A stretch of DNA of 39,476 nucleotides from Candidatus Azambacteria bacterium RIFCSPLOWO2_01_FULL_44_84. Its GTDB lineage: Bacteria > Patescibacteriota > Minisyncoccia > UBA10092. The stretch is from contig MEYR01000004.1 in NCBI GenBank assembly GCA_001774075.1, positions 1-39,476 on the forward strand, in the 5' to 3' direction. Below the pieces are notes generated by a model. That model had not been told where the DNA came from, searched no databases, and saw only the letters and a program-made list of their open reading frames with translations. This document shows, in pieces, positions 26,269-37,507 of this stretch; the first letter of the stretch is position 1, and each line of letters begins with the position of its first letter. The translations under genes and the position numbers were made by a program.

Positions 26269-26865
26269 ATGGCGACAAAAAATCCAAAGGAAGAAAAAAC
26301 GCTAGTGCTGATAAAGCCTGACGGCGTCAAGCGGGGCTTGATCGGTGAGGTCGTTGCCCGCATTGAAAAGCGCGGCCTAAAAGTAATCGCCATTTCAATG
26401 GTTAAGCCGAGTCGCAAGCAGATTGACGAGCACTATCCGAAAGATTTGAAATGGGTGAAGCGTCTCGGTGAAAAGTCGCTTGCCACCTACGCTAAATACG
26501 GCTGGGACCCGAAGAAAGAAATGGGCACCGACGACCCGATGAAAATCGGCAAGTCCGTCCGCAACTGGATTCTGGACTTTATGACCTCCGGTCCCGTCGT
26601 AAAAATCGTCGTGGAAGGGATTCACGCGGTTGATATGGTAAGGAAATTGGTTGGCAATTCCATTCCGGCTTTAGCCGAAATGGGCACCATAAGAGGGGAC
26701 TTTTCGGTTGATTCGGCTGCGTTGGCTAACAAGGGTAAGCGCGCGGTCCATAATCTGATTCACGCGTCTGAAACGCCCGAGGAGGCAAGGCACGAATTGA
26801 AATATTGGTTTAAAGCCGGCGAGATTTTTGAATACAAACGCGCGGAAGAAGACATTATGTTCTGA
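26269..26865 (+). CDS. ndk: nucleoside diphosphate kinase (long form)
   Basis: 'EKTLVLIKPDGVKRGLIGEVVARIEKRGLKV'; active-site His in 'NLIHASETPEEA'. Confidence 0.88.
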   Translation: MATKNPKEEKTLVLIKPDGVKRGLIGEVVARIEKRGLKVIAISMVKPSRKQIDEHYPKDLKWVKRLGEKSLATYAKYGWDPKKEMGTDDPMKIGKSVRNWILDFMTSGPVVKIVVEGIHAVDMVRKLVGNSIPALAEMGTIRGDFSVDSAALANKGKRAVHNLIHASETPEEARHELKYWFKAGEIFEYKRAEEDIMF

Positions 26866-26970
26866 AAATCTCAAATCTCAATTTCCAATTTCTAATAAAA
26901 TCTCAAGCTTCAAATCTCAAATTTATGCTTTTGGTCATTGGGATTTGAGGTTTTATTTGACATTGGGATT

Positions 26971-26997
26971 TTGACATTGGGATTTTTGTCGTATAAT
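26971..26997 (+). promoter_or_regulatory. promoter-like element (perfect hexamers, short spacer)
   Basis: TTGACA (26971-26976), 15-nt spacer, TATAAT (26992-26997). Confidence 0.4.
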
Positions 26998-36795: not shown

Positions 36796-36867
36796 CCTAC
36801 TCCTACGAATTACGAATATTTTCGAATTACGAATATTCGCAATTCGTCATAATTCGTAATTGGTAGG
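36796..36867. repeat. CCTAC-(ATTACGAAT)n hairpin element, copy 4
   Basis: 'cctactcctacgaattacgaatattttcgaattacgaat' pairs with 'attcgcaattcgtcataattcgtaattggtagg'. Confidence 0.85.
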
Positions 36868-36877
36868 GATAAAATTT

Positions 36878-37507
36878 ATGAAGTTTATTTTGGGGAAAAA
36901 ATTAACGATGAATCAGGTTTTTGATGAAACGGGTCGTGTGACGCCGGTTACTTATATTGAGATTGAACCGAATTTCGTGACGCAGGTAAAAACTCAAGAC
37001 AAAGACGGCTACAGCGCCTTGCAAGTCGGCACGACTAAAACCAAAAAAGTTTCAAAAGCGAGGGCCGGCCACCTCCAAAAAATCTCAAATCTCAATTCTC
37101 AAATCTCAAATTTGCGCGATTTGAAAGAATTCAGAATGAGCGGGGAGGAAGCGAAAAATTTTAAAACAGGAGACAAATCGGAAGCCGACACGTTTGCGCA
37201 GGGCGACACGGTGACCGTCATTGGAGTTTCAAAAGGCAAGGGTTTTCAGGGCGTTGTTAAGCGCCACGGGTTCGCGGGAGGGCCTGCCAGCCACGGCCAG
37301 AAAGACAGGCACCGGGCGCCTGGTTCTATCGGTTCGTCTTTTCCGGAACACGTTATGAAAGGCATGAGAATGGCCGGCCGCATGGGCGGAGAAAAAATTA
37401 CGGTGAAAAATTTGAAAGTTATTTCGGTTGACAAAGAAAATCAGTTGATCGCGCTTTCGGGCGCGGTGCCGGGAAGAAAAGGCAGTCTGGTTATTATTAA
37501 GGGATAG
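36878..37507 (+). CDS. rplC: 50S ribosomal protein L3
   Basis: Start at 'MKFILGKKLTMNQVFDE' (the track TTG at 36860 lies inside the repeat). 'GKGFQGVVKRHGF', 'PGSIGSS'. Confidence 0.95.
   Translation: MKFILGKKLTMNQVFDETGRVTPVTYIEIEPNFVTQVKTQDKDGYSALQVGTTKTKKVSKARAGHLQKISNLNSQISNLRDLKEFRMSGEEAKNFKTGDKSEADTFAQGDTVTVIGVSKGKGFQGVVKRHGFAGGPASHGQKDRHRAPGSIGSSFPEHVMKGMRMAGRMGGEKITVKNLKVISVDKENQLIALSGAVPGRKGSLVIIKG

What the first reader, a model, noticed from the sequence alone, without database searches (positions are those of the whole stretch)
37075..37114. Ribosomal protein L3 carries an in-frame stretch identical to spacer words downstream of ndk
'aaaatctcaaatctcaatt' and 'tcaaatctcaaattt' in rplC (encoding QKISNLNSQISNL) are identical to a 19-mer and a 15-mer in the ndk 3-prime spacer (26866-26884 and 26910-26924). 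In L3 this stretch replaces the usual 'AKAGV..GR' loop between 'AGH' and 'EFR'. So the low-complexity intergenic words also occur in a ribosomal protein gene.
Basis: partly seen in the sequence, partly recalled or inferred. Interest (0 to 1): 0.6.

Follow-up and report, generated by a model that had tools for sequence, protein, structure and literature searches.

The report
In-frame 7-base repeat in ribosomal protein L3
The odd stretch in the L3 gene is a run of a 7-base unit (AAATCTC, 4.6 copies) that adds seven amino acids to a dispensable loop; it is one of about 60 such runs in this tiny groundwater bacterium, and relatives carry runs of at least nine other units at the same spot.

Summary
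rplC (window 36878-37507) shares a 19-mer and a 15-mer with the spacer after ndk.

What they share is a heptanucleotide tandem array. The rplC stretch is (AAATCTC)x4.6 at 37080-37111. Three units are 21 nt, which adds exactly 7 residues (KISNL[NSQISNL]R) compared with the short form in relatives (KKIGNLR, KNLGNLR).

Period-7 arrays are specific to this genome's repeats: 61 arrays, against 0-5 for other periods and 0 in a Markov control. They are enriched in spacers. About 29 lie in frame in genes, including IleRS, ArgRS, LeuRS, GatA, TsaD and RsmH.

The ndk spacer is something else. It is one of four copies of a ~120-nt hairpin element whose 5' arm is built from the same unit. rplC has no partner arm.

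Among Azambacteria-like L3 genes the site is a hot spot. Of 156 sequences, 68 carry +7 residues and 63 are short. At least nine units are confirmed in DNA. Close relatives differ in the whole unit, while distant ones share perfect arrays although silent sites are saturated.

I read it as a slippage-type repeat retained in a permissive loop, not as a copy of the spacer.

This scan has reported heptamer arrays in CPR genes before, on other DNA. Heptamer repeats themselves are known.

The parts
36878..37507 (+). rplC, ribosomal protein uL3 (209 aa, P0001)
   Evidence: ORF and translation. Precomputed Pfam PF00297. E = 1e-53 to solved uL3 chains over residues 3-208.
37080..37111 (+). Heptanucleotide tandem array (AAATCTC)x4.6 with one variant unit (AATTCTC). 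It encodes KISNLNSQISN, residues 68-78.
   Evidence: TRF: period 7, 4.6 copies, 92% matches, score 57. Own census score 17. It adds 21 nt, or 7 residues, compared with short-state relatives.
37079..37097 (+). 19-mer identical to window 26865-26883
   Evidence: Exact-word search of the whole genome finds 3 copies: C4:26865, C4:37079 and C36:5819 on the minus strand.
37099..37113 (+). 15-mer identical to window 26910-26924. Its last bases, AAT TTG, are the conserved Asn-Leu codons of the L3 loop.
   Evidence: Exact-word search finds 2 copies. N-L-R is conserved in short and long L3 forms.
26865..26990 (+). Hairpin element of about 120 nt directly after the ndk stop codon (TGA at 26863-26865). 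Its 5' arm is built of AAATCTC-type heptamers, its 3' arm of GGGATTT / GAGGTTT words and TTGACA boxes.
   Evidence: Four aligned copies in the genome with sharp ends. Plus-strand RNA folds at -40.1 kcal/mol, z = -6.0; the minus strand folds at -24.7, z = -3.2. Full-length relatives of 70-80% identity occur in other families of the class.
26866..26922 (+). Degenerate period-7 array (unit AAATCTC, 8.6 copies, 67% matches), which forms the 5' arm of the hairpin element
   Evidence: TRF.

Best explanation
The rplC stretch is an in-frame heptanucleotide simple-sequence repeat. It is a product of the same period-7 array-forming process, most likely a form of strand slippage or misaligned repair, that fills this genome's spacers.

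A 7-nt unit keeps the reading frame only in steps of three units (21 nt, 7 residues). That is exactly what is added here to the ancestral loop K-x-[I/L]-x-N-L-R.

The A-rich strand AAATCTC has no stop codon in any frame, and every frame gives the same cyclic peptide, KSQISNL. The array is therefore translated as a hydrophilic heptad.

It persists because it lies in a segment of uL3 that tolerates change. That segment is a helix end plus a loop before the LKEFR strand, and it is not the loop that reaches the peptidyl-transferase centre. Other CPR lineages have lost or changed this segment.

Across Azambacteria-like bacteria the same site holds arrays of many different units. They turn over as whole blocks, by concerted evolution, re-expansion or recombination.

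The match to the ndk spacer arises because the 5' arm of that hairpin element is built from the same common unit.

Shown: the array, its period, the +21 nt, the genome-wide period-7 excess, the hot spot and the unit diversity, the stability of the array in the population, and the absence of a hairpin in rplC. Inferred: slippage or misaligned repair as the generator, neutrality of the peptide, and tolerance of the loop on the ribosome.
For: - Array: TRF gives period 7, 4.6 copies.
- Period specificity: 61 arrays of period 7 against 0-5 for periods 4-12, and 0 in a Markov control. Perfect arrays of at least 2 units plus 3 nt: 64 for period 7 against 1-16 for periods 5-10.
- Spread: about 29 arrays lie inside long ORFs, 22 are intergenic and 10 sit at gene edges. 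Hosts include IleRS, ArgRS, LeuRS, PolX, RsmH, PCMT, a Mur ligase, GatA and TsaD.
- Step size: short-state relatives read GHLKKIGNLRWM or GHLKNLGNLRWL. The long state is +7 residues in 68 of 156 distinct L3 sequences.
- DNA of relatives shows near-perfect arrays at the same site with units AAATCTC, AAATCAC, AAATGTC, AAAATAC, AAGCGAC, AAATTCG/AAATCCG, AAATTCC, AAACCAG and AAATCCC.
- Turnover: L174 and L169 are 88% identical outside the loop but have wholly different units. L133 and L140 are 93% identical and differ by the same C/G change in several units.
- Long and short states are interspersed on the L3 tree. The best tree needs 26-29 changes, and starred branches alone force at least 9-11.
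- Tolerance of the segment: it is absent in G007 (same family) and in several other CPR L3 genes, and it takes inserts of 1-20 residues in others.
- AlphaFold model: helix 60-72, coil 73-80, strand 81-87. The lowest-confidence stretch (residues 146-154) lies elsewhere in the protein.
- No hairpin in rplC: RNA fold z = -1.1, against -6.0 for the spacer element.
- Stability: no insertion or deletion in contigs of four runs from four studies, and an identical protein on 25 contigs.
Against: - No slippage intermediate was seen. Only contigs could be laid, not reads, so rare length variants are invisible.
- Single-unit steps would shift the frame of an essential gene, so a simple one-unit-at-a-time model cannot apply.
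- Short forms with a 7-spaced seed (KKIGNL) are no closer to long forms than KNLGNL forms are. Changes between states look like block replacements.
- Perfect arrays are shared by lineages whose silent sites are saturated. L169 and L175 have third-position identity of 0.50 but identical (AAAATAC)x4. L001 and L174 have 0.46 but 31 of 32 array bases identical. Neutral slippage alone does not explain this. It needs homogenisation, repeated origin of the same unit, transfer, or selection on the DNA or RNA.
- Why the period is 7 is not known.
- The L3 tree rests on about 190 columns, and recombination in rplC could inflate the number of inferred changes.
Confidence: 0.6

Rival explanations
1. The rplC stretch is a copy, by insertion or gene conversion, of the 5' arm of the dispersed spacer hairpin element found after ndk. 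On this reading it is a Rickettsia-palindromic-element-like invasion of which only one arm remains.
For: - The 19-mer and the 15-mer occur in the same order in both places. Both share the variant third unit that begins AATT.
- The element is a real dispersed family: 4 copies here and full-length relatives across the class.
- A whole heptamer-armed hairpin does sit in frame in the mnmA-like gene at C30:14491-15732.
- Contigs with the same array and unrelated flanks are abundant in the same metagenomes. Depth is about 2500 at 37070-37123 against about 11 beside it.
Against: - There is no partner arm and no significant fold in rplC (z = -1.1).
- Identity ends after 19 nt. The element's internal 26 nt are absent.
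- Distant L3 genes carry perfect AAATCTC arrays, or arrays of other units, at the same codon positions. P0054, about 63% identical to P0001, has the same ISNLNSQISNL.
- G005 has the L3 array but no AAATCYC 14-mer in its genome.
- Sharing a unit with another locus is the rule: 72% of arrays do.
Confidence: 0.15
2. The seven extra residues are a selected functional extension of uL3, an amphipathic heptad I-x-x-L-x-x-x that lengthens helix 60-72. The DNA periodicity is a by-product of this.
For: - The constant +7 length in 68 of 156 sequences, and retention of hydrophobic residues at positions i and i+3.
- The model puts the first array residues in a helix.
- Array DNA is conserved beyond silent-site saturation.
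Against: - The variable positions change together in the way a 7-nt unit dictates (I-S/N-L/K-S-Q, I-P/N-P/K-S-Q, I-Q/N-T/K-Y-K, A-T/S-D/K-R-Q). They do not behave as free residues.
- Selection on the protein would not hold synonymous codons periodic.
- Close relatives do without the insert, and some CPR L3 genes lack the whole segment.
Confidence: 0.1
3. The match is a chance resemblance of AT-rich low-complexity sequence, or an assembly artefact.
For: The genome is AT-rich in its spacers. One 1003-nt public contig (P0007) appears to join a LepA N-terminus to the L3 C-terminal half through array-like words, so arrays can mislead assemblers.
Against: Shuffles never reach the observed word count. 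A Markov control gives 0 period-7 arrays against 61 observed. Contigs from four independent runs reproduce the site without an insertion or deletion, and the identical protein is on 25 contigs.
Confidence: 0.02

Closest known systems
Heptanucleotide simple-sequence repeats of prokaryotes. Heptamer over-representation was reported by Mrazek, Guo and Shah 2007, as cited in PMC4692102. Examples are GGGNATC repeats of Xanthomonas and Nostoc (Rehm et al. 2015, PMC4692102), STRR heptamers of Calothrix, and TAACTGA repeats of Beggiatoaceae (PMC4679880).
   Same: Tandem 7-nt units. A genome-wide excess specific to period 7. A preferred size of about four units. Concentration in spacers close to gene ends.
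   Different: Here there are about 90 different A/T-rich units (AAAWNNN), not one G-rich unit, and most cannot form G-quadruplexes. About half of the longer arrays lie in frame inside conserved housekeeping genes, one of them a ribosomal protein. [quoted passage not shown] Whole-unit turnover at one orthologous site is not reported there.
Rickettsia palindromic elements (RPEs), repeats inserted in frame into protein-coding genes. This rests on my own knowledge of Ogata et al. 2000; the term also appears in PMC10969869 and PMC1779305, which the paper search listed but I did not read.
   Same: Repeat DNA of the intergenic type is translated as an extra peptide in a conserved protein, at a site that tolerates it.
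   Different: RPEs are palindromic elements of about 100-150 bp that belong to defined sequence families. The rplC insert is a 32-nt one-armed tandem array with no fold. The RPE comparison fits the mnmA-like insert and the ndk spacer element better than it fits rplC.
Phase-variable contingency loci (repeats in coding regions of Haemophilus, Neisseria and others; PMC2651432)
   Same: A short tandem repeat inside a reading frame whose unit length is not a multiple of three.
   Different: The host is an essential gene, and the length is fixed in all contigs from four studies. Only three-unit states are seen, so the repeat does not act as a switch.

Membership tests
Ribosomal protein uL3 (PF00297) | Full-length similarity to uL3, including the SKGKGFQG and GxRMAGRMG motifs | tested here: met
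   Precomputed Pfam PF00297. phmmer E = 1e-53 to solved uL3 over residues 3-208. Motifs are visible in the alignment.
Heptanucleotide simple-sequence repeat | Head-to-tail copies of a 7-nt unit | tested here: met
   TRF: 37080-37111, period 7, 4.6 copies, 92% matches.
Heptanucleotide simple-sequence repeat | Genome-wide excess of period 7 over other periods | tested here: met
   61 arrays against 0-5 for periods 4-12, and 0 in a Markov control. 64 perfect arrays against 1-16.
Heptanucleotide simple-sequence repeat | Preferred array size near four units | tested here: met
   Perfect arrays fall into two length classes, 14-23 nt and 27-35 nt. Genic arrays measure 29-38 nt. The rplC array is 32 nt.
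Heptanucleotide simple-sequence repeat | Unit number varies between strains | tested here: inconclusive
   No length variant in contigs of four runs, but contigs drop rare variants. Between lineages the site differs by 3 units, and in a few cases by other amounts.
RPE-like in-frame palindromic element | Palindromic element that can fold into a hairpin | tested here: not met
   rplC 37060-37160 folds at -24.0 kcal/mol, z = -1.1; 27 of 200 shuffles fold as well.
RPE-like in-frame palindromic element | Similarity to a dispersed element family over the element's whole length | tested here: not met
   Only bases 1-32 of the 126-nt spacer element match rplC, at 88% and E = 1e-4. The four true copies align over about 120 nt.
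RPE-like in-frame palindromic element | In-frame insertion in a conserved protein | tested here: met
   +7 residues compared with short-state orthologues, with the frame intact.
Phase-variable contingency locus | Repeat-number changes that switch the reading frame on and off within a population | tested here: not met
   No insertion or deletion at 37070-37120 in four runs. Identical protein on 25 contigs. The gene is an essential single-copy ribosomal gene.

The most novel reading that the evidence does not exclude
The L3 loop is a fixed 'cassette' site. There an active, period-7-specific process writes or re-templates whole arrays of about 30 nt, for example by gene conversion with the genome's other arrays and hairpin elements, or by a dedicated repair or synthesis activity. 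The DNA or RNA sequence of the array, not the peptide, is what is maintained. That would explain perfect arrays shared across lineages with saturated silent sites, and complete unit swaps between relatives that are 88-93% identical. It would make a ribosomal protein gene a recurrent target of an undescribed repeat-generating mechanism in CPR bacteria.
Probability: 0.25. Interest if true: 0.75.

Novelty: new variant of a known kind. Interest (0 to 1): 0.5.

Why it matters
Heptamer repeats are a long-noted but unexplained excess in bacterial genomes, and they are usually described as intergenic.

In this genome they sit in frame in an essential ribosomal protein and in about a dozen other core genes. 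One orthologous site in L3 shows at least nine different units across a clade. That gives a natural series for studying how such arrays arise, how they are homogenised, and how selection on the reading frame filters them. Only three-unit steps survive, and only on the stop-free strand.

The finding also shows how non-coding repeat processes can add peptide material to highly conserved proteins in genomes otherwise known for reduction. It marks a uL3 segment that can be lengthened or lost.

There is a practical point as well. These arrays are shared by many organisms in the same samples, so they are likely points of misassembly.

Tried and rejected
- The search for related loci on genome contigs used generic L3 motifs and returned only distant L3 genes of 57% identity or less. 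It was no use for the loop. A DNA-pattern scan of metagenome contigs for the peptide HGQKDRHRAPG replaced it.
- The order holds only 12 genomes.
- I tested whether the L3 unit recurs in neighbouring spacers of the same contig. Too few other arrays lie on each contig to decide; the unit recurred in only one lineage (L125 and L129, AAATCCG).
- I tested whether short forms with a 7-spaced seed (KKIGNL) lie nearer to long forms than KNLGNL forms do. They do not: 0.31 against 0.49 of nearest neighbours are long.
PF05635 was not found in this genome, which is 92% complete.
- No RNA holder was listed among the sequencing runs. Only Logan contigs could be laid, so rare length variants and expression could not be examined.
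- The Mrazek 2007 paper is not held. It is cited only through PMC4692102.
- No paper on such repeats in CPR ribosomal proteins was found.
- Solvent exposure on a ribosome could not be computed, because no coordinates are available. It is inferred from natural insertions and deletions and from the model's secondary structure.

Full report
**1. The observation**

The 19-mer AAAATCTCAAATCTCAATT lies at window 37079-37097 and 26865-26883. The 15-mer TCAAATCTCAAATTT lies at 37099-37113 and 26910-26924.

rplC is window 36878-37507 on the plus strand and encodes 209 residues. The stretch reads ...AGHLQKISNLNSQISNLRDLKEFR.

The core word AAATCTCAAAT, with up to one mismatch, occurs 10 times in the window against 2.3 expected. 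No shuffle out of 100 reached 10.

**2. What the stretch is**

Tandem Repeats Finder calls 37080-37111 a period-7 array: unit AAATCTC, 4.6 copies, 92% matches. It calls 26866-26922 a degenerate array of the same unit.

The genome is 597 kb in 41 contigs with 44% G+C. Its L3 relatives carry source names such as Candidatus Azambacteria and Parcubacteria.

Period 7 stands out in this genome:
- My census finds 61 arrays of period 7, against 0-5 for every other period from 4 to 12, and none in a Markov control.
- Perfect arrays of at least two units plus 3 nt number 64 for period 7, against 1-16 for periods 5-10.
- The units are nearly all A/T-rich, of the form AAAWNNN, with about 90 distinct units.

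My crude gene set covers 90% of the genome. By that set, 29 of the 61 arrays lie inside long ORFs, 22 are intergenic and 10 sit at gene edges. Arrays are therefore about ten times denser in spacers, but they are common in genes.

Pfam identifies the hosts of ten in-frame arrays as IleRS, ArgRS, PolX, RsmH, PCMT, a Mur ligase, LeuRS, GatA, an O-antigen-ligase-like protein and TsaD. L3 is one case among many.

**3. Why the match to the ndk spacer arises**

The spacer at 26865-26990 is one of four copies in this genome of an element of about 120 nt with sharp ends.
- Its plus-strand RNA folds into one long hairpin (-40.1 kcal/mol, z = -6.0). The minus strand folds much less well (-24.7, z = -3.2), because many of the pairs are G-U.
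- Full-length relatives of 70-80% identity occur in other families of the class.
- Its 5' arm is made of AAATCTC-type heptamers.

rplC matches only the first 32 nt of the element. It has no partner arm and no significant fold (z = -1.1).

In this genome 72% of exact arrays of two or more units have a unit that recurs at another locus. AAATCTC ranks 10th of 90 units.

Two features are shared beyond the bare periodicity:
- The AATT start of the third unit.
- The final AAATTT. In rplC this is the conserved Asn-Leu codon pair.

I judge these weak evidence for direct copying.

**4. Comparison of L3 genes**

In the same family, L3 without an insert reads GHLKKIGNLRWMREFR or GHLKNLPKLRWLREFR. This L3 has exactly 7 more residues, equal to 21 nt or three units.

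Among 156 distinct L3 sequences of this clade, 68 have the +7 state, 63 have the short state and 25 have other lengths.

DNA of 79 metagenome contigs and of the family genomes shows near-perfect arrays at the same codons with nine units:
- AAATCTC
- AAATCAC
- AAATGTC
- AAAATAC
- AAGCGAC
- AAATTCG/AAATCCG
- AAATTCC
- AAACCAG
- AAATCCC

The peptides follow the logic of a 7-nt unit read through all three phases:
- ISNLKSQ from AAATCTC
- IPNPKSQ from AAATCCC
- ITNHKSQ from AAATCAC
- IQNTKYK from AAAATAC
- ATSDKRQ from AAGCGAC

Because 7 and 3 share no factor, all three frames of one strand give the same cyclic heptapeptide. The A-rich strand of AAATCTC has no stop codon, whereas its complement contains TGA.

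**5. Dynamics at the site**

On an L3 tree built without the loop columns, long and short states are interspersed. The best tree needs 26-29 changes, and starred branches alone force 9-11.

Close relatives can differ in the whole unit:
- L174 (AAATCTC) and L169 (AAAATAC) are 88% identical outside the loop.
- L133 and L140 are 93% identical and differ by the same C/G change in several units.

Distant lineages can share perfect arrays:
- L169 and L175 have third-position identity of 0.50 at conserved residues but identical (AAAATAC)x4.
- This genome and L174 have 0.46 but 31 of 32 array bases identical. By simple multiplication the chance is about 0.002 and 0.0004 respectively.

The arrays are therefore homogenised, re-created, exchanged or constrained at the DNA level. 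They do not decay like silent sites.

Short forms with a 7-spaced seed are not nearer to long forms than other short forms are. The changes thus look like block replacements, and recombination between lineages cannot be excluded.

**6. Tolerance of the site**

- The same position also takes GC-rich mini-hairpins (L155, L004, L147).
- A second hot spot lies just after EFR (L122/P0010, G006).
- One genome of the family (G007) and several other CPR L3 genes lack the whole segment from about residue 53 to 80. Some lack about residues 30-110.
- The AlphaFold model (mean pLDDT 74.5) puts residues 60-72 in a helix, 73-80 in coil and 81-87 in a strand. The lowest-confidence stretch (146-154) lies elsewhere. 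From general knowledge of uL3, that stretch belongs to the loop that reaches towards the peptidyl-transferase centre.
- Compared with solved bacterial uL3, the loop here is 5 residues longer.
- I could not compute exposure on a ribosome.

**7. Reality and stability**

Contigs from four runs of four studies cover the site with no insertion or deletion. The identical protein is on 25 contigs.

In the same metagenomes the summed contig depth rises from about 11 to about 2500 exactly over 37070-37123. The loose ends on both sides have no consensus. Many unrelated loci and organisms therefore carry the same array.

**8. Reading**

The best explanation (confidence 0.6) is an in-frame heptanucleotide repeat produced by the genome-wide period-7 process. 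It is kept because three units preserve the frame, the A-rich strand is open, and the uL3 segment is permissive.

A copy of the spacer element's arm is possible but less likely (0.15). A selected heptad extension is less likely again (0.1). Chance or artefact is excluded.

What generates the arrays, and why the period is 7, remains unknown.

**9. Relation to what is known**

Excess of heptamer repeats in bacteria, a preference for about four units and a location near gene ends are published for Xanthomonas and Nostoc (PMC4692102, which cites Mrazek et al. 2007). Beggiatoaceae also carry heptamer direct repeats (PMC4679880). [quoted passage not shown]

In-frame translation of repeat DNA recalls the Rickettsia palindromic elements, but rplC fails the hairpin and whole-length tests.

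I found no paper that describes such arrays in CPR ribosomal proteins.

Earlier notes of this scan describe heptamer arrays and hairpins in CPR genes on other DNA, and an in-frame insert in topA of this window. The phenomenon is therefore not new to the scan. New here are the L3 hot spot, its nine or more units and the block turnover.

Noticed in passing
window 26865-26990; G000 C32:1141-1259(-), C36:5729-5837(-), C38:12469-12573(+): Dispersed hairpin element of about 120 nt with heptamer-built arms and TTGACA boxes. It abuts a stop codon (ndk) or lies next to the start codons of divergently oriented genes. It folds much better as plus-strand RNA (z = -6.0 against -3.2). Full-length relatives of 70-80% identity occur in other families of the class, with up to 25 matches in one genome (G033).
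   Followed up: partly
G000 C30:14491-15732 (-), locus L200: An mnmA-like gene carries a whole heptamer-armed hairpin in frame. It adds about 29 residues (FPISKSQFPNKSQIQNSKKIENLNIGNSLKIENCKLKI) between the 'ATGHY' and 'KDQSYFL' motifs.
   Followed up: partly
G000 C2:893-4393 (-), locus L190: The isoleucyl-tRNA synthetase holds two in-frame heptamer arrays. It also has a histidine-phosphatase (His_Phos_1) domain at residues 488-655, inside the synthetase.
   Followed up: no
loci L025 (G007), L113, L124, L139, L171; L143, L176, L188, L115: Some CPR uL3 genes lack the segment from about residue 53 to 80 (VQLGFE-RWLREFR). Some lack about residues 30-110 altogether, yet they keep the SKGKGFQG and HGQKDRHRAPG motifs.
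   Followed up: partly
loci L155, L004 (G005), L147: The same L3 loop site also takes GC-rich mini-hairpins (CCCGCC...GGCGGGCAAG, encoding for example SRLRQGSGGQA). This is a second class of short insert at the hot spot.
   Followed up: no
locus L122 / protein P0010; L011 (G006): A second insertion hot spot lies in L3 just after the EFR strand. L122/P0010 has an (AAGTTCC)n array there encoding PQVPSSKFQVSN. G006 has a 10-residue insert, SAIGGPASGW.
   Followed up: no
protein P0007 (1003-nt public contig): The contig joins a LepA-like N-terminus to the C-terminal half of this L3 through array-like words (ILNSKTQIPSNSQISNL). LepA of this genome has no array at that point (C33). The contig is probably a misassembly at a shared repeat.
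   Followed up: partly
window 36800-36867: The hairpin-like element just upstream of rplC also shows very high summed contig depth (about 950 against about 11) and many small insertions and deletions in the metagenome contigs. It too is therefore a widely shared repeat.
   Followed up: no
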